DNA of 64,000 nucleotides from a virus (lineage: Duplodnaviria; Caudoviricetes), in IMG/VR virus record IMGVR_UViG_3300032007_000027, one strand, 5' to 3'. A model generated the notes under the pieces. That model searched no databases and was not told where the DNA came from. It saw only the letters and a program-made list of their open reading frames with translations. Below, in pieces: positions 5,956 through 59,470 of this stretch. The position numbers were made by a program, and so were the translations under genes. Every line of letters starts with the position of its first letter. The first letter of the stretch is position 1.

Positions 5956-6002
5956 GTGGACTACCTCCCACCGTAAATGTGTGGTTTTTGTGGGGGGGGA
6001 TT
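5956..6002 (-). mobile_element. IS200/IS605-type mini element (PATE-like)
   Basis: Reverse complement TTAT|AATCCCC...GGTAGTCCAC. Confidence 0.65.
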
Positions 6003-21059: not shown

Positions 21060-21101
21060 CCGGAAATGTTAACATCATCAGATATATTTATATTTTTGAG
21101 T

Positions 21102-21640
21102 TCAAAGTATGCATAAACTATTGAGGTTTGGGGAAAGTTTATTAACAGTTTGAGGGGGTTTTGATTACTTTTTAACCGATTGTATGAGCCTAGAACACAG
21201 TTCTTGATGGTTACAGACCTTAAAACATGCTCAAAATGCATATAAACTATTTGGATTTGGTAAAAGTTTATTAACAGTTTGAGGGGTTTTGTTTACTTTT
21301 TAACCACTTGTAAACCTTTAGAACGAGGTTCTTTCATGGTACAGTATCCTAAAACATGCTCAAAGTGCTAATAAACTATTTGAGTTTATGGAAAGTTTAT
21401 TACATGTTTGGGGACTTTTGATTACTTTTTAATCAGTTGTAACCTTATAGAACGAGGTTCTTGACTGTTACAGACCCATAAAACCCCTCAAAATGCATAT
21501 AAACTATTCGAGAATTGCAAAAGTTTATTGCTAGTTTGAGGGGTTTTTTGAAGTTTTGTTGATTTTTTGGGGTAGTTTTGATGGTTCTTGAACTGGTTCA
21601 AAACCTATAAGATTGCTTTTGAAACACTCTGTAATGCATG
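21102..21640 (+). repeat. array A of the ~128-bp repeat (3 units, a partial unit and a terminal segment)
   Basis: Units start ~21102, 21231, 21360, 21488. Confidence 0.9.
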
Positions 21641-21723
21641 AAAATAAAAATTTTTTTGATAAATATGTATATATAATAACTATAATAAATTAATAAAAAT
21701 CTTATATAAAAAGGAATAAAATT

Positions 21724-22576
21724 ATGATTTTAACCGAAAATGGCGTTCTAAAATTGATGCAACGCATCAAAAGTTTTATTACATCTCAACTAAATACAAA
21801 AGCAGCTAGTGTTCATACCCATACTTTATCTGAAATAGATGATTTATCAAACCTATCCATGGGGGGGGTATATTCTAAATCAGAAGTAAATACCCTTTTA
21901 AATGACTATATCCCTAAAGTGGGGGGGGGTGATTAGTGGAAATGTTCTAGGACGTATTTCATCGGCAAGTTATTTACATCTATGTGGCGGAACTGGTTTT
22001 GGTGAAGGTGCAGTAGTTGCACTTAATGGAAAAGGAACTACATCTGATTATGCTGGTGTAGTTACAATATCTCTTAATGATGGTTCACGGTCAAAAAGCA
22101 TGAACATTAAACCTGATGGGACTTGGACATGGAATGGCACAGCTTGCCAAATCACATCAGACCAACGTTTAAAACAACAAATCACTCAAATAGATAACGC
22201 ATTATTAGATGCATGGGAAGATGTAACCCCATGCCAATTCAAATATAATGATGCTGTCAATGAAAAAGGCAATGCAGCTAGACTTCATACAGGATATGTA
22301 GTTCAACAAATCGATACAGCTTGTAAATCTCATAACATTGATATATCTGAATATGGCTTATACTGCCATGAAGAATACCCTCAGGAAACAGAGGAAGTTG
22401 AAGTCAAGCAAGATGATGGTACAATCAAGAAAGAAACTAAAGTCATAAGAGAAGCATCTGAGCATTATTCATTACGCTATACTGAAACTTTAGTGGTTGA
22501 ATGCGCTTACTTAAGAAGAGAAAACTCTCGTTTAAAAGAACGTTTAAGCAAGATTGAAAATCTTCTAAACATATAA
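21724..22576 (+). CDS. tail fibre / RBP 1 with C-terminal S74 chaperone, frameshifted at G9
   Basis: G8 (21861-68) in frame, G9 (21921-29) out of frame; TSDQRLK motif; G8 at the second tract would give 283 aa. Confidence 0.8.
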
Positions 22577-22615
22577 ATGAACTGTCACTAAAAATATGAC
22601 AGTTCTTAACACTTT

Positions 22616-25558
22616 TTAAACTTTTGTATATTTTGAACCTTTATCTGACAATGTAACAAGAATATTATTGTCAGATAATTGTTCATTATTCATTCCATGA
22701 ATGATTAAGAACACTTTATCAACTTTCATATCATTTATAATATCAATGCCGGTATAAACTGCATCGGAACTGAAATATTTAAATGTTTCATCCATAAACA
22801 ACACAGATACAGAGCCTAAAGAATTTGTTATACCTTTTAAGAATCTTAAATCCGCCTGCAATCTCTGACCGCCGGAAAGCATGGTATAATCAACGTATTT
22901 GTTATACTCTTTCACAAACAGTTTAATATTTAAGGTAGGTTTCAAAGAGCCGTTTTGCATTGTATGAACGGTTTCAACCTGTAAAAGTTCATCTGTATTA
23001 AGGTATTCTGAAACACGCTGCAATAATGATGCAACCAGCAAGCCTTTATCACTTAAAATTTTGGTATTAAATTTAGATAATTCATCAATAACATTCTTTT
23101 GATCAAGAATATCAGCTTTTAAACTATCTAATTCAATGTTTAAATTTTTTATTTTTTCATTATTATATATAATAGTATTATATATTTCATTATTAATTTT
23201 CGCAATTCCGATTTTTTGATTGAACTCATTCATTTCATTTTGAACATTTTGAATCTGCAGATCTAAATCTGCAATATTCCCATGCATAGCCGCAATATTG
23301 ATTTTCAAGGATTCTGTATCATCTTTCTTCAATCTGATTGAGGTAATAAGATTGTTTTCAAGGGTGTATTCAAAATCAGAAAGTTTTTCAAAGTTTGCTT
23401 TCAAACCCTCTTTGAGTTCAAGAATTTTATTCTCATTCATAAGAATAGTATTCTTAATATTCATTATCTTATTGTTTGAATCAATAATCCTGTTATTCTC
23501 AATAATTCTTGTTTGTTCATTCTGTTTCAAAGTTTTGAAATTTTCAAGTTCAGAATTAAGCTTGTTTATACCCTCTTTAAGTACTGTAATCTTATAATCA
23601 AGGTTATCAATATGCCATGGCTGTTTACATGTAGGGCAAATATCAGGATGATTTACAAGTGAATTAAGTTTATCATTACCAAGACTGATTTTATTAGAAA
23701 GTTCTAAAATCTTTGTATCGTATTCTGCAATCTTAGCATATACATCATCAATCTTTACAGTTTCTTTAAGTTCTAACGGCTGGGTGGAAAGCCTTTGATT
23801 TTCTTCCTTTAACTCTGTAATCTTTTTAAGGGCATTGTTAATAACAATAATAAGACTTTCAGCATTTTTCTTCTTGTTTTCAATGCTGATAATTTCACTG
23901 TTTGCCTTGATAATGTCATTGTTCAAAGATGTTTTAACATCATTGAATGTTTTAATTTTTTCATTACACTTTTCAATATTTGACTGCAAGGAAGTTAGAT
24001 CTATAAAGGTACTGTGTTCCTGATTACTTGCATTGTACTCAGTTAATGAGTTCAACTGTGTTTCAAGCTTTGTTATTGATATGTTCTTTTCTGCTGTATT
24101 ATCGTTTAATTCTTTAATCTTACTTGAAAGATTATCAGTCCATAATTTGATAGTATTCAAACCAATCAGCTTGCTTAAAAATGATACACGGTTTGTATCA
24201 CTCATATCAGAGAATATACCGGTGGAACTCTGTTTAATGTAGATTAAATTCCAGAAGTCAAGGAAACCAAGTTCTTCCTCTAAATCTTTCTGCAAATCAT
24301 TTTTCTTGTTGGATTCAACGTATTTTCCGTCTTTGCTGTATTGCAGAGTTGATAAGGTTCTTTCAATAAGGTATTGACTTCCTTTATACTCAAAACTTAA
24401 AGAGCCGGAAAATTTATCAGTATAAACGCTTTGATAATCACTCTTATTATAACCGCTTAACTTGCCGAAAAACATAAATTCAACAAGGTTGAACAAAGTA
24501 CTCTTTCCAGCACCGATTTCGCCTTTAATGGTGGTTAAACCTTTGTATTCATTAAAGTTAAATTCAAGTTCTTTAATAGATAAGAAGTTCTTACATTTAA
24601 GTGTATTCAAAGTTATTCTTAAATCAGGAACACTTGATTGTATAGTGCAGTCTGAAATAACTGTATTAACAATTGATTTTGATTTATCAGAAAGATTTTC
24701 GGTAAACTGATTTATAACATTCTTAGGATCAATATCTAAATCTGAGATAGAAACGTTTTTGAGTTCATCATCAAGTTTAACTTCCTTAACCTTTACTACT
24801 GCATCTTGATTATTGTCGGTAGCGGTCTGCTGCATTTCCTTTGCTTCATCATCGCTTTCAGCATACTTGAATTCAAGAAACATTCCTTGAGTTGAAATTC
24901 TTGTTAATGTATCGCTATCTAAATCATACAATACAAATCCCACATCCGGGGAATCCGAGAAAGAATGCATCAACGGTGTTCCAAGTGATACCAGATTGTC
25001 TATACATTTATAGATATGGATATGACCGCAGAAAACCTTTTTATAACCTTTACAATCAATATAATGCTCACTGAACGGACTCAAAGATTTATGAGCATCA
25101 CCGTGACATACAAGATAATCCGCATCTTTTCTCTCAAAATTGTTCGGAGTCCATGAATGAAAATAAACTTTTTTATTATTGATCTCTATTATATTATCAT
25201 TATAGATATTAATATTGTTTACATCATCTAATAATGAAATCAATGTATAGTTATTGTATTCAAGAATATCTGTTTTATCAGTCCTTACCACTAAATCGTG
25301 GTTTCCAAGAACAAGTCTTATGATTGCATTGCTGGCAATATCTTTTAAGAAGTTCTTAACAACTGCCATAACCTGTGGGGTACTTTGTGCTGTTAAGAGC
25401 AAATCACCGGCAATCCATACCTCTTTTACATTATTCTTTTGTATTGTATCTATAATAACATCTTTAAGTTTTAAAAACTGATTGAGTCTGAAATCATTCT
25501 GATTATAGTTCCGGTATATACCGATATGAATATCTGATAAAACGAGTACATTAAACAT
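22616..25558 (-). CDS. fused gp47-gp46 (Mre11/SbcD plus Rad50/SbcC) recombination nuclease
   Basis: SDIH, GDL, GNHD, GHIH then GEIGAGKST, CPTC, LSGGQ, MDE in one ORF; ATG at 25558 has an RBS. Confidence 0.88.
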   Translation of the reverse strand: MFNVLVLSDIHIGIYRNYNQNDFRLNQFLKLKDVIIDTIQKNNVKEVWIAGDLLLTAQSTPQVMAVVKNFLKDIASNAIIRLVLGNHDLVVRTDKTDILEYNNYTLISLLDDVNNINIYNDNIIEINNKKVYFHSWTPNNFERKDADYLVCHGDAHKSLSPFSEHYIDCKGYKKVFCGHIHIYKCIDNLVSLGTPLMHSFSDSPDVGFVLYDLDSDTLTRISTQGMFLEFKYAESDDEAKEMQQTATDNNQDAVVKVKEVKLDDELKNVSISDLDIDPKNVINQFTENLSDKSKSIVNTVISDCTIQSSVPDLRITLNTLKCKNFLSIKELEFNFNEYKGLTTIKGEIGAGKSTLFNLVEFMFFGKLSGYNKSDYQSVYTDKFSGSLSFEYKGSQYLIERTLSTLQYSKDGKYVESNKKNDLQKDLEEELGFLDFWNLIYIKQSSTGIFSDMSDTNRVSFLSKLIGLNTIKLWTDNLSSKIKELNDNTAEKNISITKLETQLNSLTEYNASNQEHSTFIDLTSLQSNIEKCNEKIKTFNDVKTSLNNDIIKANSEIISIENKKKNAESLIIVINNALKKITELKEENQRLSTQPLELKETVKIDDVYAKIAEYDTKILELSNKISLGNDKLNSLVNHPDICPTCKQPWHIDNLDYKITVLKEGINKLNSELENFKTLKQNEQTRIIENNRIIDSNNKIMNIKNTILMNENKILELKEGLKANFEKLSDFEYTLENNLITSIRLKKDDTESLKINIAAMHGNIADLDLQIQNVQNEMNEFNQKIGIAKINNEIYNTIIYNNEKIKNLNIELDSLKADILDQKNVIDELSKFNTKILSDKGLLVASLLQRVSEYLNTDELLQVETVHTMQNGSLKPTLNIKLFVKEYNKYVDYTMLSGGQRLQADLRFLKGITNSLGSVSVLFMDETFKYFSSDAVYTGIDIINDMKVDKVFLIIHGMNNEQLSDNNILVTLSDKGSKYTKV

Positions 25559-25634
25559 TGAAACTTCCCTTATTTTGATAATATTTTTTGTATTGTACAA
25601 AAACATTATGCAGACTTCAAGTTGTTTTATGCTT

Positions 25635-26400
25635 TCAAAATGATGATAAACTATTTGAGTTTTAGGAAAGTTTATTAGCACTTTGATGGGGGTTTCCAGT
25701 AGTTCTTTATAGACTTAGACTTTAAAACATGCTCAAAATGATAATAAACTATTTCGATTTTGGGAAAGTTTATTAACAGTTTGAAAGGGTTTGGTTACTT
25801 TTTAACCGTTTGTAAGGTACTAGAACACAGTTCTTGATGGTTACAGATCTTAAAACATGCTCAAAAATGCAAATAAACTATTGAGGTTTTGGAATAGTTT
25901 ATTAGCAGTTTGGGGGATTTGTTTACTTTTTAACCGTTTGTAAGGTACTAGAACACAGTTCTTGATGGTTACAGACCTTAAAACATGCTCAAACTGTGCA
26001 TAAACTATTGAGGTTTTGAAATAGTTTATTAACAGTTTGAGGGGTTTTGATTACTTTTTAACCGTTTGCAAGGTACTAGAACACGGTTCTTGATGGTTAC
26101 AGACCTTAAAACATGCTCAAACTGTGCATAAACTATTGAGGTTTTGGAATAGTTTATTAGCAGTTTGAAAGGTTTTGATTACTTTTTAACCGTTTGTAAG
26201 GTACTAGAACTAAGTTCTTGATGGTTACAGAATCCTAAAAGTGGCTCAAAATGCTAATAAACTATTTGAGAATCGCAAAAGTTTATTAACAGTTTGAGCA
26301 TATTTTTGAAGTTTTGTTGATTTTGAATGCTGTTTTGAGGTCTTGAACCGGTTCAAAACTGTCAGAGTAACGATTTTGGAATCATTCAAATGAGCATGAA
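25635..26400 (+). repeat. array B of the ~128-bp repeat
   Basis: Units start ~25733, 25861, 25989, 26117, 26246, then the terminal segment. Confidence 0.9.
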
Positions 26401-26682
26401 AAAAAGCTATGTTGTAAAGGTGTATTGATATGAGTTTATAACATAGTTCACCCAAATTTTAACACACATTATAATCTGTAATTCTTTCTATCTCAGTTAA
26501 TCTTTAAACAATCATTTTGACTGTATATAAACATATTTATATATTTAACTCTATTATCATACCTGACATGTATTAACGTTTCTAAAAATATATTAGTGAT
26601 CTACTTCATACATATAGCTTCATTGCATTGATTTATAACATATATTATCGTATACTATTTATACATTCAAATGAGGTAAAGT

Positions 26683-27720
26683 ATGGAACTGTCAAATATG
26701 GTATCAATCCTTAAACAGATGTTTAAAAGTCTAAGTGCTGATGAACAGCAAAGCTTTTTAGACTCATTAAAGAATGAACCTAAAGACATTAAAGGATTTG
26801 AATCATTAAAACAAGCAGTAATCAAACACAATCCAAACCCGTTACCTGATAGATGTAACTGTCCTCATTGTCAAAGTACTCATGTTGTTAAAAACGGCAA
26901 TAGAAACGGTGTTCAAAGATTCATGTGTAAGGAATGTAATAGAACATTTACCTACAGTACCAATACTATAGTTTATAAAAGTTCTAAATCTATTGAAGTT
27001 TGGAAAAAATACTGTGAATGCTTTCTTAATAAGTTTCCGTTAAGAAAATGTGCATCTATATGTGGTATTAATCTTCATACCGCTTTTAATTGGAGACATA
27101 AAATCCTTGATGCACTTCAGAATATGCAGTCAAGTATTACTTTAAGAGGTATTGTAGAAACCGATGGTACTTATTATGCTTTAAGTTTTAAAGGTTCACA
27201 TGAAATGCCTAGAGAAACCCATAAACGTGGACATTCCGTGTCTACACGGGGTTTATCTAAAGAGATGGTTTGTGTTCCTTGCATGGTTAATCATTCCGGT
27301 TTTTCACTTGCTAAGATTTCAAGTTTAGGTAAACCGTCTTTAAATGATTTAGGAAAAGTAATAGACAATAGAATAGAAAAAGGTTCAGTATTTGTAACCG
27401 ATTCATTCAGAGGGTATCAAAAAGTTGCTAAAGATAATGATTTAACCCATATCAGAATTTTAAAAGGTAAATGAACCAACGGTTCATTTAATATATAGAC
27501 TGTAAACAGTTATCATTCACAGTTAAGACAAATGGTAGATCTCCATTTCAGAGAGGTTGCAACTAAATACCTTAACAACTATATTGTTTACAATAATTTT
27601 GTTAATATTGCTAAGAATACATTTGAGAATAAACTGAATAAGTTAGAAGATTTTGTGTTCAGCACAAAATGTTTAACCAGATGTTTATTGATTAAATTAA
27701 GACCGGCAGTGCCAGTATAA
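26683..27720 (+). pseudogene. IS1595-family DDE transposase with two in-frame stops
   Basis: CPHC...CKEC zinc ribbon, VETDGTY, VTDS, NSYHS, VATKYLNNY; TGA at 27472 and TAG at 27496. Confidence 0.88.
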
Positions 27721-27852
27721 CTTTTAGTTATAAATATAGATAAAATTACAAAATAAGGAATAGATTATGCACTCAATTACTCACTTACTTAGAAGCCTAG
27801 CTTCTTCAAGTATTTTTCCTAAGATAAATATAGCCATGAGAGGTATTTAATC

Positions 27853-29739
27853 ATGGCTAACGAACAAAATACAGAAGCTTTAACAAGAAAAAACATGAAT
27901 TTTGAAGTTGGTGATAATGTTGATTTTGTAGTATATGCACAATCAATAGATCACTCATTAACTGATATTTCAGATTGCTTATCAAAAGCTGGTGGTAAAC
28001 CTAAAGAATTTTCTTTAGAACGTTTAAATGATGCAGCGTATAAGCCAAAAGGCAAAGCGAAACCAGAATACATAATAACGTATAAAGATGATCCAAATAC
28101 AATTCTTGTTATAGAGTGTAAATCAAACATTAAAATGCATTCTTCATCAGAAAACACAACTGATTTTCCTTATCCTAGAGGTTATGCAGTTGATGGCGTT
28201 TTATACTATTCATATTTTCTAAAAGAAAAATTTAATGTTATCGCTGTCGCTGTCAGTGGAAATGAAAAGGCATATAAAGTAAATGAATATTACTGGGTAA
28301 AAGGTCAGCCTAAACCGCTTGAACAAGAACGTACTAGAAACACTTTTCTTACACCTAAAAACTATAAGGATTTAATAGACAATAAGAAACTTGTAAAGAA
28401 GTTTTCTTATATTGAAATCAAAGAAAAAGCTATTGAGTTTAATGAACATCTAAGAAACACTCTTAAAATTGAACCATCAAAGAGAATTATGTTTATTGCT
28501 GGGTGTTTACTTGCATTAAAAGATTCTAGTTTTCAGCAATCGTATTCAAAAGGATTACCAACAAAAATGATAATCCAGCAGATGATACAATCTATTAAAA
28601 ATGTTCTGAGTGAACATAATATCCCTCAAACTAAAATCAACTTAATTACAAAATCATGCAGTTTTATAGAAGATTATAAAGAGATAAACGAAATTGATCC
28701 TCAGTTACAAGGTTCATTATTGTATTTTTTAAAACAGTTGGATTTATGTATTATTCCGATGATTAATGATGATACTAATCATCAAGATAGTTTAGGTCTT
28801 TTCTATCATGAGTTCATAAAATATACTGCTGGTGGTACTGGGAATGAATTAGGAATAGTCTTAACGCCGCCTCACCTATGCGATTTTATGTGTGAATTAG
28901 CAGAGATAAGCAAAAATGACTATGTAATAGATACTTGCTGTGGAACAGGAAGTTTCTTGATTTCAGCAATGAAACATATGTTTGCAAATGCAAACGAAAA
29001 TGAAATATCAGAAATAAAACAAAAGCATTTATACGGTGTAGAAGTAACACCGGATATTTTTGCCATTGCAGTAACAAATATGATTATTAGAGGTGATGGT
29101 CAGTCACATATCTATAACGAAAATTCATTTAATTTATCCAAGGATTTGCTTAAGGATGTTCAATTTAATATTGGATTGATAAATCCTCCGTATTCACAAA
29201 AAGATCATTGTGAACTAGAATTTGTTGAAACAATGCTTAATCTATTATCAGTAAAAGGCAGAGGGGTTGTAGTAGTTCCGATGTCGTGCGCTATCGGTAC
29301 TAAGTTCAAGGAAGTAAGAAAGAGACTGTTTGAAAAACACACTCTCAAAGCAGTGTTCTCAATGCCTGATGATATTTTTTATCCAGTTGGGACTAATGTT
29401 TGCGTAATGGTATGGGAAGCTCATACACCTCATGATTGTTCTAAGAAAACATATTTTGGTTATTACAAGGATGACGGATTTAAGAAGAAAAAGAAACTTG
29501 GTAGAGTTGATTATCAGAACAAGTGGGAATTCATCAAAAAAGAATGGGTCGATAATTACATAGATAAAAAGGTGATTGTCGGTCAAACTACATTAAAAGC
29601 AGTAAAACATTCCGATGAATGGCTTTGCGAAGCTTATATGGATACTGATTATAGTAATTTATCTCAAGATGATTTTCAGCAGACTGTGAATGATTATCTT
29701 GCATGGTTAGTTAAAGAGGATAATGAATATGAATCATAA
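27853..29739 (+). CDS. Type IIB (BcgI alpha-like) restriction-methylase subunit
   Basis: N-terminal PE...IECK nuclease motif; DTCCGTGSFL and NPPY N6-MTase motifs; 628 aa. Confidence 0.82.
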   Translation: MANEQNTEALTRKNMNFEVGDNVDFVVYAQSIDHSLTDISDCLSKAGGKPKEFSLERLNDAAYKPKGKAKPEYIITYKDDPNTILVIECKSNIKMHSSSENTTDFPYPRGYAVDGVLYYSYFLKEKFNVIAVAVSGNEKAYKVNEYYWVKGQPKPLEQERTRNTFLTPKNYKDLIDNKKLVKKFSYIEIKEKAIEFNEHLRNTLKIEPSKRIMFIAGCLLALKDSSFQQSYSKGLPTKMIIQQMIQSIKNVLSEHNIPQTKINLITKSCSFIEDYKEINEIDPQLQGSLLYFLKQLDLCIIPMINDDTNHQDSLGLFYHEFIKYTAGGTGNELGIVLTPPHLCDFMCELAEISKNDYVIDTCCGTGSFLISAMKHMFANANENEISEIKQKHLYGVEVTPDIFAIAVTNMIIRGDGQSHIYNENSFNLSKDLLKDVQFNIGLINPPYSQKDHCELEFVETMLNLLSVKGRGVVVVPMSCAIGTKFKEVRKRLFEKHTLKAVFSMPDDIFYPVGTNVCVMVWEAHTPHDCSKKTYFGYYKDDGFKKKKKLGRVDYQNKWEFIKKEWVDNYIDKKVIVGQTTLKAVKHSDEWLCEAYMDTDYSNLSQDDFQQTVNDYLAWLVKEDNEYES

Positions 29740-30733
29740 AACAAGACTGTTCAAAATCAGTGATTTATTCATTATAAAATACGGTGTAAATTTGGAATTA
29801 TGCAATTGCGAAGAATGTGATAAAAACGATGTTGATGCTGTAAATTTTGTTTCTAGGACTTCTATGAATAATGGTGTATCTGGATACGTTAAACGAATAG
29901 ATGAGATTGAGCCTCAATCTAGTGGTTTAATCACGCTTGCTGGCGGTGGTAGCGTTTTATCTACTTTTTTGCAAACCAAACCTTTTTACAGTGGGAGAGA
30001 TCTATATACATTAGAATCCATAACTAATATATCTAATGAGTGTAAGTTATATATCATAACTCTTATCAAAGCAAATCGTTATAGATATGCTTACGGTAGA
30101 CAAGCAAATAAAACCTTTCCAAACCTTGAAATTGAATTGCCTATTGATGATTCTAACCGTATTGATTGGCAATACATGGAAGACTATATTAAGTCATTAC
30201 ATCACAAACCATTAACTACAAAGAATAAAGCAGACAACGTTTCTGGTTTTGATGTAAAGAATTGGAAAGATTTTAAGTTATCTGATTTATTTAAAATAAG
30301 TGGTTCAAAAACAACTCCTTTGGAACAACTAGAAGAATATGGTGTAGGAAAATATCCTTATGTAACTACACAAGCCGTAAATAATGGTATAGAAAATTTT
30401 TATAATTACTATACAGAAGACGGGAACTGTATAACAGTTGACTCTGCTGTATTGGGTTATTGTGCATATCAAGAAACAAACTTTTCTGCATCAGATCATG
30501 TTGAAATTTTAAGACCGCAATCAAAATTTAATAAGTATATCGGTTTGTTTATCGTTACTATCTTAAATAAAGAACAATATAGGTACTCATACGGCAGAAA
30601 ATGCAGTCAAACCAAACTTAAAAATACAATAATCAAACTTCCAGTAATAACAAAAGAAGACGGAACATATGAACCTGATTGGGAATACATGGAAAATTAC
30701 ATAAAATCCCTTCCATATGGTGAACGGATATAA
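29723..30733 (+). CDS. R-M specificity subunit (BcgI beta / HsdS-like)
   Basis: Two TRD repeats, each ending LP...DW.YME.YIKSL. Confidence 0.85.
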   Translation: MNMNHKTRLFKISDLFIIKYGVNLELCNCEECDKNDVDAVNFVSRTSMNNGVSGYVKRIDEIEPQSSGLITLAGGGSVLSTFLQTKPFYSGRDLYTLESITNISNECKLYIITLIKANRYRYAYGRQANKTFPNLEIELPIDDSNRIDWQYMEDYIKSLHHKPLTTKNKADNVSGFDVKNWKDFKLSDLFKISGSKTTPLEQLEEYGVGKYPYVTTQAVNNGIENFYNYYTEDGNCITVDSAVLGYCAYQETNFSASDHVEILRPQSKFNKYIGLFIVTILNKEQYRYSYGRKCSQTKLKNTIIKLPVITKEDGTYEPDWEYMENYIKSLPYGERI

Positions 30734-30756
30734 TTCCCAAATCCTTTAACTCATTT

Positions 30757-30799
30757 TAAAATAACCCCCGAATGTTGAAAAACATTCGGGGGTTATTTT
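30757..30799 (+). terminator. intrinsic terminator
   Basis: AAATAACCCCCGAATGTT...AACATTCGGGGGTTATTT hairpin. Confidence 0.75.
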
Positions 30800-30933
30800 A
30801 TGTGGTTGTAAACTCATATCAATACACCTTTACAACATAGCTAAAAAAAATAATTTTTTGTATAAATACTATATATAATAATAACTATAATAATAAAAAT
30901 ATTAAAAATCTTATATAAAAAGGAATAATAATT

Positions 30934-32066
30934 ATGATTTTAACAAACTCTGGTGTTCTAAAATTGATGCAGCGCATAAAAAGTTTTATAACAGCACAAT
31001 TAAATACAAAAGCTAGTTCAGTTCATACCCATTCTATCTCTGAAATTGACAATTTAGCATCTCAATTGGTGGGGGGGGGGGGTACACTAAAAGTGAAGTT
31101 GATACCCTTTTAAATGGCTATATCCCTAAAGTGGGGGGGGGGGTGTTAAATGGGCGAACATATTCACGTACAGTTGATAATGATTATTTAGTCATAAATG
31201 GCTCTTCTACCGAAAATAATGGGGCTTTTCTTAGACTCCATGGTAAAAATTATGATGATACACCATATGCTGGAACAGTTCTCATTCGAGCAAAAGATAA
31301 TTCAAATGTTTTTGATTTACTTTTAAAACCAGACGGCACTGCAACTTGGGGTAATAAAAACCTAGCTATGCAAGAAGATGTTGTTCCGAGAAGTGGTGGA
31401 TATACATTAAGGGGTGAATATTTAGGTAGAACTGACAATAATCGCAATTTTGATATATGCGGTGGAAATTTGGTATCCAGTAGCGCAACTCTTTCGCTAC
31501 ATGGTGGGGAACGCTCGCAAAATCCCGGTAACTTCTATTTACATGCAAGAACTGCAAATGCAGACAAGGTAATAGTAGGCTACCCTAACGGCACTCTAAC
31601 ATGGAATGGTCAGGCTATGCAAACTACATCAGACCAACGTTTAAAACAACAAATCACTGAAATTGATGATAAACTTCTTGATGCTTGGAAAGATGTAGAA
31701 CTAAGCCAATTCAAGTATAATGACGCTGTTAATCAAAAAGGAACTAAAGCTAGACTTCATACCGGTTATGTAGTTCAACAGATTGACGAAGCGTGTAAAT
31801 CTCATAATGTTGATATTTCCGATTATGGATTATACTGTCATGAAGATTATCCTGAGGAAACTGAGGAAGTTGAAGTTACTCAAGATGATGGTACAACAAA
31901 GAAAGAAACAAGGGTTATAAGAGAATCATCTGAGCATTACAGTTTAAGATACACAGAAGTTTATGCGGTTGAATGCGCCTACCTAAGACGTGAAGTATCA
32001 AGGCTTAAACAGCAAAATGAAAACTTTGAACAACGTTTGAAAATGCTTGAACAATCTGTCAAGTAA
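30934..32066 (+). CDS. tail fibre / RBP 2 with S74 chaperone, frameshifted at G12
   Basis: N-terminus paralogous to 21724; G12 (31071-82) out of frame, G11 (31133-43) in frame. Confidence 0.8.
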
Positions 32067-32267
32067 TTTTTAATAAATCTGTGACATACGTCACAGATTT
32101 TTTAATCTTTTTTGAAATAACACTCAGTACTTGTTCCCACTTTGCAATCAATTGAATAATGCTCATAAACAGAAAGCCTGCCTTGGGTATACCCAAAAGC
32201 AAAAACTAATATTGCAATAATAATGAGTGCTACTAATTTTAGAAGTATTTTCATATCATCATCCATT

Positions 32268-59004: not shown

Positions 59005-59470
59005 GTTTATTTCCTTTTAAAAATTCACCCCCCCCCCATGGGGAGAGTATTAAAACTTTTTATTTGTATTTATATTTTATTTCAAATTCATTTAAAATTC
59101 ATAGTTTTTCTAACTTTATTTGTGAAAACAATCACAAATTTATTTCAAAAATGTTTACATTAGATCTATAAATTAATAATATTCAAAAATAATATTCAAA
59201 AGGAGTTAAAATGAGTAAAGATTTAAAAAATTTTGCAAAGCAATGTATCTGGGTATTTTTGTTCCTTTTCATCATTGGTTTAATATTTTGCTAGAGGTTT
59301 CACATGGGAGATTTTCTAATGGACGAATTTTTAGATGATGCTGATTTTTATGATTCAGATGATTTTGAAAACAGCGGTTGCATTGTCAATATTTCACGTT
59401 ATAATAATAATATTGATGATGATTTGGATGCTGGAGATGCACCCGAATTTGAATCTGAGGAAAAATAGAG

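What the first reader, a model, noticed from the sequence alone, without database searches (positions are those of the whole stretch)
21724..32066. Double poly-G switch in each of two paralogous receptor-binding genes
Seen: both genes have two G tracts about 60 bp apart at homologous positions. Gene 1: G8 in frame, G9 out (G8 or G11 restores). Gene 2: G12 out (G10 or G13 restores), G11 in frame. Long G runs are otherwise rare here. Both genes are OFF as assembled, at different tracts, and each gives a 59-70-aa N-terminal peptide. Established: poly-G phase variation of RBPs occurs in Campylobacter Fletcherviruses. Inference: two tracts in series act as an AND gate that keeps ON variants rare and gives combinatorial host-range bet-hedging. 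Exact tract lengths could be sequencing error, but their conserved placement is not.
Basis: partly seen in the sequence, partly recalled or inferred. Interest (0 to 1): 0.8.

Follow-up and report, generated by a model that had tools for sequence, protein, structure and literature searches.

The report
Poly-G switched tail-fibre genes in phage
An uncultured T4-like gut or rumen phage carries two short tail-fibre genes, each interrupted by two slippery runs of G that must both be the right length for the fibre to be made, which extends a host-range switch so far tied to Campylobacter phages to a new and widespread phage group.

Summary
Gene 1 (ATG 21724) has G8 in frame and G9 out of frame. Gene 2 (ATG 30934) has G12 out of frame and G11 in frame. 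The tracts lie 60-62 bp apart at homologous codons.

Both genes are autonomous late cassettes. Each has a TATAAATA-type promoter, a shared 45-aa N-terminal adaptor, a PTR repeat, a divergent middle, a Peptidase_S74 chaperone C-terminus and a terminator. Both alternative frames between the tracts hold stops, so each tract must be in frame on its own: a true AND gate. The downstream frames are under purifying selection (dN/dS 0.17), so these are not pseudogenes.

The same phage has two further fibres with the same adaptor and a tract at the same codon. One is G7 as read from DNA; the other reads MGGGY, implying G10. Both are in frame.

Relatives carry 7-12 G at this site (6-14 inferred from proteins). 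Public assemblies hold 62 clusters of adaptor peptides, nearly all cut off right after tract 1 or tract 2, against 67 longer clusters. This fits hypermutable contingency loci.

Read-level heterogeneity could not be tested. The adaptive bet-hedging reading stays an inference.

This is an analogue, not a homologue, of the Fletchervirus poly-G receptor-binding genes. The one Fletchervirus checked (NCTC12673) has one tract per gene.

The parts
21641..21723 (+). Conserved upstream region of cassette 1: near-TATAAATA motif (GATAAATA), AAGGA ribosome-binding site
   Evidence: Aligns with the region upstream of gene 2 and of six related cassettes. Exact TATAAATA lies 64-74 nt before the ATG in 5 of 8 cassettes.
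21724..21936 (+). Gene 1, N-terminal frame as assembled (70 aa): 45-aa adaptor, tract 1, PTR-like repeat, tract 2, stop
   Evidence: ORF list and sequence. Pfam PTR match at 24.4 bits, below the 27-bit cut-off. The exact peptide is on record in two assemblies.
21861..21868 (+). Gene 1 tract 1, G8, in frame (Met-Gly-Gly-Val)
21921..21929 (+). Gene 1 tract 2, G9, out of frame (G8 or G11 would be in frame)
   Evidence: frame arithmetic read from the sequence
21902..22576 (+). Gene 1 distal frame (224 codons): beta-rich middle domain and Peptidase_S74 intramolecular chaperone
   Evidence: PF13884 at 47.6 bits (cut-off 22); PHROG tail fibre and tail spike families down to E 3e-42. dN/dS against gene 2 is 0.17.
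22579..22605 (.). 10-bp-stem hairpin after gene 1, shared with the convergent gp46/47-like gene
30843..30933 (+). Conserved upstream region of cassette 2 with exact TATAAATA; it starts directly after the right inverted repeat of the IS1595-RM transposon
30934..31113 (+). Gene 2, N-terminal frame as assembled (59 aa): adaptor, tract 1, shifted tail, stop
31071..31082 (+). Gene 2 tract 1, G12, out of frame (G10 or G13 would be in frame)
31133..31143 (+). Gene 2 tract 2, G11, in frame with the distal frame (Val-Gly-Gly-Gly-Val)
31131..32066 (+). Gene 2 distal frame (311 codons): two ~85-aa beta modules and a Peptidase_S74 chaperone
   Evidence: PF13884 at 46.5 bits; PHROG tail fibre families. PDB sequence matches to the phi29 neck appendage chaperone domain 3gud, endosialidase 3gw6 and T5 fibre 4uw8.
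32075..32100 (+). Intrinsic terminator after gene 2 (11-bp stem, T run)
59028..59037 (-). Further G10 tract, non-coding, 24 nt before the ATG (59004) of a 509-aa ORF of unknown function; it forms a mini-ORF ATG-GGG-GGG-GGG-TGA downstream of a TATAAATA
   Evidence: no family match. Whether it belongs to the same switch system is unknown.
5992..5999 (+). Further G8 tract in an intergenic stretch; role unknown

Best explanation
**What the genes are.** They are two of at least four receptor-binding fibre cassettes of an uncultured T4-like phage. Each cassette is a self-contained late transcription unit. Each begins with the same 45-residue N-terminal adaptor, which presumably docks all these fibres to one site on the virion. 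After the adaptor comes a Gly-Gly(-Gly) hinge written as a pure G run (tract 1). In the two short fibres there is also a second Gly-Gly written as a G run (tract 2). This second motif opens the first beta module. A Peptidase_S74 self-cleaving chaperone follows.

**How the switch works.** Slipped-strand mispairing during replication changes the tract lengths. Any length that is not in register shifts the frame and stops translation within 1-17 codons. What remains is a 59-70-aa adaptor peptide. Both shifted frames between the tracts hold stops, so shifts cannot compensate each other, and a short fibre is made only when both tracts are in register.

**Predicted state of this phage.** In the assembled consensus both short fibres are OFF, at different tracts, and the two long fibres are ON. 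Most virions should therefore carry the long fibres. Minority genotypes should add short fibre 1, short fibre 2 or both.

**Shown versus inferred.** Shown: the anatomy, the frame logic, tract-length diversity among relatives, purifying selection on the distal frames, and the fibre identity. Inferred: slippage as the cause, heterogeneity within a population, and a host-range benefit.
For: **Anatomy and identity**
- Sequence, ORFs and domains.
- T4-like context: gp23, tail-tube cap and a gp46/47-like gene.
- AND logic: stops in both alternative frames of the inter-tract segment in both genes.

**Non-random G runs**
- 6 long tracts against 0.04 matches expected.
- GGG is 9% of Gly codons. Other Gly-Gly motifs in the same genes use GGT or GGA.

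**Genes still functional**
- dN/dS is 0.17 over 120 distal codons at dS 0.77. It is 0.31 in the adaptor and 0.45 in the inter-tract codons (only 16 codons).
- No other frame breaks were found.

**Same site in paralogues**
- G7 in frame in the 1040-aa fibre (L036).
- MGGGY in frame in a 552-aa fibre whose longest contig has the same length, 149,689 nt (P0233).

**Same site in related contigs**
- G11 out of frame (L023/L032).
- G10 plus G8, both in frame (L031).
- G12 (L033).
- G11 out of frame (L034).

**Census of public proteins**
- 62 clusters (about 447 distinct sequences) of 50-116-aa adaptor peptides, nearly all ending just after tract 1 or tract 2.
- 67 clusters (about 179 sequences) of longer proteins.
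- About 20 C-terminal ORFs start in a shifted frame exactly at tract 1 or tract 2.
- In-frame alleles differ by whole Gly residues (GG, GGG, GGGG).
- Some alleles have an interrupted run (GDG), as in locked alleles.

**Analogy**
- Fletchervirus poly-G receptor-binding proteins are described in Sorensen et al. 2021, Cell Rep 35:109214. That paper was not held here; I cite it as quoted in PMC10579305, PMC11959909 and bioRxiv 10.1101/2025.10.21.683753.
- I saw the arrangement directly in NCTC12673.
Against: - No reads were available, so heterogeneity within one phage population is not shown.
- All sequences are metagenome assemblies, and runs of 10-13 G are error-prone.
- No near-identical ON allele of gene 1 or gene 2 was found. 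The closest records share the same OFF state, so switching may be slower than in classical contingency loci.
- Tract lengths in the census are inferred from protein sequences, assuming every Gly there is GGG.
- At tract 1 about 65% of clusters are in frame. This is above the one third expected for fully randomised lengths.
- L031 has an extra frameshift at a short G3/G4 site that is not a long tract, so some breaks in this family are ordinary mutations or errors.
Confidence: 0.7

Rival explanations
1. Assembly or sequencing error. The real genes have fixed in-frame tracts and the fibres are made constitutively. The frameshifts are homopolymer miscalls carried into consensus contigs.
For: All data are metagenome assemblies, and G11-G12 lengths are hard to call. 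The JGI and ENA records may derive from the same reads. Homopolymer frameshifts have been sequencing artefacts in other phage projects (PMC3670811).
Against: The break in gene 1 is at a G9 run, which short reads usually call well. Lengths at the same site differ by up to 5-7 bases among relatives, not by one. About half of more than 120 independent clusters are broken only at these two sites. The isolate genome NCTC12673 shows the same in-frame and out-of-frame pair. The choice of the rare GGG codon at these sites calls for an explanation either way.
Confidence: 0.1
2. Recoding rather than DNA switching. The tracts are fixed, and full-length fibre is produced from the out-of-frame alleles by RNA polymerase slippage or ribosomal frameshifting on the G run. 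That would set a low constant dose of short fibre.
For: Long homopolymers promote transcript slippage, and Gly-tRNA can re-pair on G runs (general knowledge, not tested here). OFF states appear stable across slightly diverged records. No ON allele of the same gene was found.
Against: Lengths at the site vary widely among relatives, in both registers, including many in-frame alleles. A programmed site would keep one length. No stimulatory structure or conserved slippery heptamer beyond the run was seen. Slippage is best documented for A/T runs (from memory).
Confidence: 0.1
3. The G runs are mainly a flexible glycine hinge and a recombination junction for swapping distal modules behind a constant adaptor. 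The frameshifts are a tolerated side effect, not a selected switch.
For: Tract 1 lies exactly where conservation ends. Behind MGGG come at least five unrelated continuations: YTKSEV shafts, collar domain, LSTNSIAFHN, IPLSGSNQ and YTFPTKE. The modules are shuffled freely among three adaptor types. A low-confidence model places both Gly motifs in non-regular linkers.
Against: A hinge does not need GGG codons. Relatives with other adaptors write the same Gly-Gly without G runs and carry no tracts of 7 or more. Microhomology of 8-12 G is short compared with the ~250-bp conserved arm upstream. This reading is not exclusive of the switch.
Confidence: 0.07
4. Decaying pseudogenes: two redundant short fibres that the phage is losing.
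For: Both are broken in every record of this phage. L031 and L033 show additional damage or deletion in relatives.
Against: There are no stops or frameshifts other than at the tracts over 224 and 311 codons. dN/dS is 0.17 at dS 0.77. Promoter, ribosome-binding site and terminator are kept. Intact double-tract homologues exist (P0195-P0197, P0202, P0217).
Confidence: 0.03

Closest known systems
Poly-G phase-variable receptor-binding proteins of Campylobacter Fletchervirus phages (Sorensen et al. 2021, Cell Rep 35:109214; seen here in NCTC12673, GU296433)
   Same: The phage is T4-like and AT-rich. G runs of 7-12 lie 30-50 codons into paralogous host-recognition genes. Deposited genomes show one paralogue in frame and one out of frame. 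The run encodes Gly-Gly-Gly. In both phages a switched gene lies close to a gp46-type recombination nuclease gene.
   Different: There is no sequence homology of the fibres: tblastn of the gene-2 distal frame listed no Campylobacter phage among its top organism groups, and the N-termini look unrelated by eye. The major capsid protein is only about 25% identical, and there is no DNA similarity. NCTC12673 has one tract of 8 or more G per gene, whereas here there are two in series with a stop-guarded spacer. Here the tract also marks the junction of a shared adaptor used by at least four cassettes. The likely host is not Campylobacter.
Bacterial contingency loci (homopolymer G/C tracts in Campylobacter, Neisseria, Haemophilus and Helicobacter surface genes)
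   Same: A simple-sequence run inside the 5' part of a surface or host-interaction gene. Frameshift ON/OFF logic. Length polymorphism among relatives. Interrupted 'locked' alleles.
   Different: The carrier is a lytic-type phage that replicates with its own polymerase. The putative host family (Succinivibrionaceae) mostly lacks long G tracts in the genomes checked, while a Campylobacter MAG has about 35.
Phage contingency loci in T2/T4 and other phages (Gomez, Barrick and Waters, bioRxiv 10.1101/2025.10.21.683753)
   Same: Reversible frameshifts at short repeats in T-even-type phages, proposed as bet-hedging.
   Different: Those repeats are mostly 6 or more bases long and sit in many gene classes. 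They are reported as under-represented in tail fibres. Here long runs of 8-12 are concentrated in the fibre genes.
Other phage tropism switches: Bordetella BPP-1 diversity-generating retroelement, Mu Gin and P1 Cin invertible fibre segments
   Same: They generate fibre diversity within one phage population.
   Different: Their mechanisms are reverse-transcriptase mutagenesis or site-specific inversion. Here there is no recombinase or retroelement at the locus, only homopolymer length.
Tail fibres and spikes with a C-terminal Peptidase_S74 intramolecular chaperone (K1F endosialidase, phi29 gp12, T5 L-shaped fibre pb1)
   Same: PF13884 scores above its cut-off. The Ser-Asp-x-Arg-x-Lys motif is invariant. 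Direct sequence matches to 3gw6, 3gud and 4uw8.
   Different: The proteins are very short (about 283 and 377 aa when in frame). They have a different N-terminal adaptor and poly-G interruptions.

Membership tests
Simple-sequence contingency locus (phase-variable gene) | Homopolymer long enough to be mutable (about 7-8 or more G/C) inside the reading frame or promoter | tested here: met
   G8, G9, G12 and G11 lie inside the two reading frames.
Simple-sequence contingency locus (phase-variable gene) | A length change shifts the frame and truncates the product | tested here: met
   Stops follow 1-17 codons after each out-of-register tract. Both shifted frames of the spacer hold stops.
Simple-sequence contingency locus (phase-variable gene) | Repeat length is polymorphic among close relatives at the same site | tested here: met
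   DNA: 7, 8, 10, 11, 11, 12 and 12 G at tract 1, and 8, 9 and 11 G at tract 2. Protein census: inferred 6-14 G.
Simple-sequence contingency locus (phase-variable gene) | Heterogeneous lengths within one population and reversible high-frequency switching | not testable with these tools
Fletchervirus poly-G receptor-binding protein system | Phage belongs to Eucampyvirinae / Fletchervirus | tested here: not met
   No blastn match of the gene 1 region in the phage collection. The capsid protein is about 25% identical to Campylobacter phages and 27% to Vibrio phages.
Fletchervirus poly-G receptor-binding protein system | Fibre proteins homologous to the Fletchervirus phase-variable proteins | tested here: not met
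   tblastn of the distal frame listed no Campylobacter phage among its top organism groups. The N-termini of NCTC12673 ORF117 and ORF116 look unrelated on inspection.
Fletchervirus poly-G receptor-binding protein system | Poly-G run a few dozen codons into paralogous host-recognition genes, with in-frame and out-of-frame states | tested here: met
   Here. NCTC12673: G11 in frame and G9 out of frame at about codon 30 of tandem paralogues.
Peptidase_S74 chaperone tail fibre | PF13884 domain above the gathering score at the C-terminus | tested here: met
   47.6 and 46.5 bits against a cut-off of 22.
Peptidase_S74 chaperone tail fibre | Conserved Ser and Lys of the self-cleavage site | tested here: met
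   S167, D168, R170 and K172 are invariant in 29 aligned homologues. The assignment as the catalytic dyad rests on memory of endosialidase work.
T4-like (Straboviridae-type) myovirus | gp23-type capsid protein, baseplate/tail-tube cap, gp46/47 nuclease | tested here: met
   PF07068 Gp23; PHROG 230 tail tube cap; PHROG 77/100 SbcCD-like.

The most novel reading that the evidence does not exclude
The phage runs a graded contingency regulon of receptor-binding cassettes. One shared adaptor and promoter front at least four fibres. A poly-G hinge at the adaptor boundary serves both as an ON/OFF switch and as the junction where distal modules are exchanged. A second tract in the short fibres lowers their ON probability, roughly one in nine against one in three. 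Long fibres are therefore usually displayed and short fibres only in rare subpopulations. Further tracts occur in a methyltransferase gene (seen in a related phage) and in a 5' leader, which would extend the same stochastic control beyond adsorption.
Probability: 0.3. Interest if true: 0.75.

Novelty: new variant of a known kind. Interest (0 to 1): 0.6.

Why it matters
Phase-variable receptor-binding proteins in phages have been documented essentially for one genus of Campylobacter phages.

This locus shows the same strategy arising independently in a different, uncultured T4-like lineage. That lineage is abundant in public gut and rumen-type assemblies: more than 120 protein clusters carry the adaptor.

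Three features appear new:
- two tracts in series with a stop-guarded spacer;
- one adaptor shared by a family of switchable cassettes;
- tracts placed at module junctions.

If confirmed with reads, switching of receptor-binding proteins by homopolymers would be a general phage tactic rather than a Campylobacter curiosity. It would also warn annotators that 'split' tail-fibre genes in metagenomic phages may be switches, not errors. The system offers a natural test of how the number of tracts tunes the ON fraction.

Tried and rejected
- **blastn of the gene 1 region against phages:** no match.
- **Single-protein and exact-pattern scans of IMG/VR:** nothing found.
- **Profile scan with the S74 end:** this found seven IMG/VR relatives at 53-62% identity. 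All are intact, none has a G/C run of 7 or more, and none carries the MILT-type adaptor (L009 has a related MVLT variant). They say nothing about the tracts except that the Gly-Gly motifs need not be G runs.
- **The look-up of encoding contigs:** DNA of the many ENA and Logan homologues could not be read, and tract lengths there are inferred from proteins only.
- **Host search.** The IS1595 transposase next to gene 2 is 64-67% identical to copies in Succinivibrio and Succinatimonas MAGs, and 46-51% to Campylobacter. One of those contigs may itself be phage. Long G runs are scarce in four Succinivibrionaceae genomes. The G9 runs in one of them are mostly in-frame Gly codons inside ordinary ORFs, two in folate-enzyme-like motifs by eye, and the rest non-coding; they do not look like switches. 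The host stays unresolved.
- **Search for an ON allele of exactly gene 1 or gene 2:** none among the retrieved proteins.
- **AlphaFold model of an intact double-tract homologue:** low confidence (pLDDT 60, pTM 0.35). I used it only as a weak hint that the Gly motifs lie in linkers.
- **Pseudogene reading:** rejected on dN/dS.
- **Compensating shifts between the two tracts:** rejected, because the spacer has stops in both other frames.

Full report
**What the window is.** The window is the first 64 kb, reversed, of a 104-kb IMG/VR virus record. CheckV estimates the record to be 59% complete. GC content is about 32%. The window encodes a gp23-type capsid protein, a T4-type tail-tube cap and a fused gp46/47-like nuclease. 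The capsid protein's only relatives in the phage collection are Vibrio myoviruses of 191-196 kb (26-27% identity) and Campylobacter Eucampyvirinae (about 25%). The gene 1 region has no DNA match in that collection. This is therefore an uncultured, deeply branching T4-like phage.

**Checking the observation.**
- Gene 1 starts at 21724. It reads through G8 (21861-21868) in frame as Met-Gly-Gly-Val. After 16 codons it meets G9 (21921-21929) and stops at 21934-21936, which gives 70 aa. A run of 8 or 11 G would join the frame that continues to 22576.
- Gene 2 starts at 30934. It meets G12 (31071-31082) and stops at 31111-31113, which gives 59 aa. A run of 10 or 13 G would carry the frame through the same 16 codons and through G11 (31133-31143) to 32066.
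- Runs of 8 or more G/C occupy six places in the window, where shuffles expect 0.04 matches. The remaining 40 kb of the record has none.
- There are no G/C runs of length 7 and only four of length 6.
- GGG is the rarest Gly codon (9%). Gly-Gly is normally written GGCGGT or GGTGGT. Later Gly-Gly motifs of the same two genes use GGT GGA. The G runs are therefore not a by-product of composition.

**Anatomy of the two genes.** They are paralogous cassettes, built as follows:
- A shared upstream region with a T4-late-type TATAAATA box. It is exact in gene 2 and in 5 of 8 family members, 64-74 nt before the ATG. An AAGGA ribosome-binding site follows.
- A 45-residue N-terminal domain, 76% identical between the two genes.
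- Tract 1, then a 16-residue segment that is part of a phage-tail-repeat (PTR) match, then tract 2.
- A divergent middle part: about 80 residues in gene 1, and two ~85-residue modules in gene 2.
- A conserved Peptidase_S74 intramolecular-chaperone domain. It scores 47.6 and 46.5 bits against a cut-off of 22. There are strong PHROG tail-fibre and tail-spike matches. There are direct sequence matches to the chaperone domains of phi29 gp12, K1F endosialidase and the T5 L-shaped fibre.
- A terminator hairpin after each gene.

In frame, the products would be about 283 and 377 residues: short fibres or spikes.

**Frame logic.** The spacer between the tracts has stop codons in both alternative frames in both genes. 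A +1 shift at one tract cannot be rescued by a -1 shift at the other.

**These are not dead genes.** Between the two paralogues, dS is 0.77 and dN/dS is 0.17 over 120 codons downstream of the breaks. dN/dS is 0.31 in the adaptor and 0.45 in the spacer, though the spacer has only 16 codons. The spacer includes a TCA/AGT serine switch. Apart from the tracts, neither distal frame has a defect.

**The family is larger than the finding.**
- The same adaptor occurs a third time in the record, outside the window. That gene is an intact 1040-aa fibre with the same upstream region and G7, in frame, at the tract-1 codon (L036).
- A fourth protein with the adaptor (P0233, 552 aa, reading MGGGY) has a longest contig of the same length, 149,689 nt, as the window's own proteins. 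I could not read that DNA.
- So this phage has two long fibres ON and two short fibres OFF, all sharing one adaptor.

**Relatives at the DNA level.** Scanning IMG/VR and JGI metagenomes with the adaptor gave five further cassettes with the same upstream region:
- L023/L032: tract 1 is G11, out of frame. The distal module is different, with a DUF4376 chaperone-like gene behind it.
- L031: G10 and G8, both in frame, but with a later single-base frameshift at a short GGG/GGGG site.
- L033: G12, in a deleted remnant.
- L034: G11, out of frame, with a small unrelated tip.
- L035: no tract; the adaptor runs straight into a collar-type tip.

Fibres with the same S74 end but other N-termini are intact and contain no run of 7 or more.

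**Relatives at the protein level.** Three searches of the public protein collection were used.
- The distal frame of gene 2 has 1557 homologues. Among the best 120, about nine ORFs begin in a shifted frame exactly at tract 1 (for example ...KWGGGYSKSEVD). About ten begin at tract 2 (MTISLKWGGV.SG). Only five intact proteins combine the adaptor with the Gly runs.
- The 70-aa peptide of gene 1 finds 62 clusters (about 447 distinct sequences) of 50-116 residues. Nearly all end a few shifted codons after tract 1 or tract 2.
- The same query finds 67 clusters (about 179 sequences) of longer proteins.
- In-frame alleles differ by whole glycines (GG, GGG, GGGG). Three alleles have an interrupted GDG.
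- Reading each Gly as GGG (an assumption), tract 1 spans 6-14 bases. G10 is the mode. 64 clusters are in register and 35 are out.
- For the double-tract type I count about 9-11 intact clusters. Against these stand about 20 cut at tract 2 and at least 5 cut at tract 1.
- These counts are rough: clustering treats short and long proteins differently, and contigs are fragmentary. Even so, breaks concentrated at two codons in about half of more than 120 independent clusters are hard to explain as noise.

**Comparison with the known case.** Poly-G phase variation of receptor-binding proteins is described for Fletchervirus phages by Sorensen et al. 2021 (Cell Rep 35:109214). That paper is not held here. 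I cite it as quoted in PMC10579305, PMC11959909 and bioRxiv 10.1101/2025.10.21.683753.

I checked one genome directly. NCTC12673 (GU296433) has exactly two runs of 8 or more G. Each lies at about codon 30 of one of two tandem paralogues near gp46. ORF117 has G11 in frame. ORF116/115 has G9 and is split.

The design matches ours, but with one tract per gene, and the proteins look unrelated. The 2025 preprint on T2/T4 contingency loci reports short repeats as under-represented in tail fibres. That makes the concentration of long runs in fibres here stand out. I found no paper describing this system in gut or rumen phages.

**Host.** The host is unresolved.
- An IS1595-family transposon carrying a methylase/specificity pair lies between 38-bp inverted repeats at 26405-26442 and 30805-30842. 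It ends directly before the gene 2 promoter.
- Its transposase is 64-67% identical to copies in Succinivibrio and Succinatimonas MAGs, including a 2.04-Mb chromosome. It is 46-51% identical to Campylobacter copies.
- One homologous fibre is labelled as coming from a Succinivibrionaceae MAG.
- Four Succinivibrionaceae genomes have 0-8 runs of G9 or longer. Where present, these are mostly in-frame Gly codons inside ordinary ORFs, with the rest non-coding. A Campylobacter MAG has about 35.
- The phage's use of poly-G therefore need not mirror a host habit.

**Mechanism and its limits.** The best reading is DNA-level slippage at hypermutable tracts, giving stochastic ON/OFF expression of alternative fibres that compete for or add to one docking site. 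The short fibres are gated twice.

What is shown:
- the structure and the frame logic;
- selection on the distal frames;
- tract diversity among relatives;
- widespread truncation at the tracts.

What is inferred:
- that slippage happens at high rate in this phage;
- that a single population is mixed;
- that the double gate is selected for rarity rather than inherited from module shuffling;
- that host range changes.

Tract 1 sits exactly at the boundary between the constant adaptor and at least five unrelated continuations. A role as hinge and recombination junction is therefore a serious companion hypothesis. A low-confidence AlphaFold model of an intact homologue (pLDDT 60) places both Gly motifs in linkers around a short helix.

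**Verdict.** This is a real feature and a new variant of a known kind. It is well supported by comparative data but lacks read-level proof.

Noticed in passing
G000:C1:101169-104291 (outside the window; L036:370-3492): Third cassette with the same promoter and adaptor: an intact 1040-aa long fibre with G7 in frame at the tract-1 codon. A fourth (P0233, 552 aa, MGGGY) is on record from a 149,689-nt contig, the same longest-contig length as the window's own proteins.
   Followed up: partly
L024 (G001:C1:62067-62076, related 90-kb phage contig): A G10 run, in frame, lies 23 codons into a DNA methyltransferase gene, upstream of its DPPY motif. This is a candidate phase-variable phage methylase.
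   Followed up: partly
window 59028-59037 (- strand): A G10 run lies in the 5' leader of a 509-aa ORF with internal repeats and no family match. It forms a mini-ORF ATG-GGG-GGG-GGG-TGA about 35 nt after a TATAAATA box and is part of a CCCCATGGGG palindrome. This could be leader-level switching. Unexplained.
   Followed up: partly
window 5992-5999 (+ strand): A G8 run lies in an intergenic stretch between two minus-strand ORFs. No function assigned.
   Followed up: no
window 26405-30842: A transposon bounded by 38-bp inverted repeats (97% complementary) carries an IS1595-type transposase, an N6-methylase fusion protein and a specificity subunit. It is inserted immediately upstream of the gene 2 promoter.
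   Followed up: partly
window 21076-21547 and 25635-26305: Arrays of a ~128-bp repeat with internal palindromes precede both fibre cassettes. For gene 2 the array would abut the promoter if the transposon were removed. They may be part of the cassette's regulatory or recombination context.
   Followed up: no
L033 and proteins P0154, P0179, P0180, P0185, P0187, P0191: A recurrent deletion derivative: adaptor plus tract 1 fused to the last codons of a downstream gene. The two frames after the tract give two different short products, one of which ends with the C-terminal tail of an S74 fibre.
   Followed up: no
L031:2940-2965: A related double-tract fibre with both tracts in frame has an extra single-base frameshift at a short GGTGGG(G)CA site in the next Pro-Arg-Ser-Gly-Gly module junction. 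It is either a true mutation or an assembly error.
   Followed up: partly
G006 (Succinivibrionaceae MAG; L083-L090): Eight G9-G10 runs. About half sit in frame as Gly-Gly-Gly inside ordinary ORFs, two with folate-enzyme-like motifs by eye; the others are in non-coding or short-ORF stretches. None looks like a switch.
   Followed up: partly
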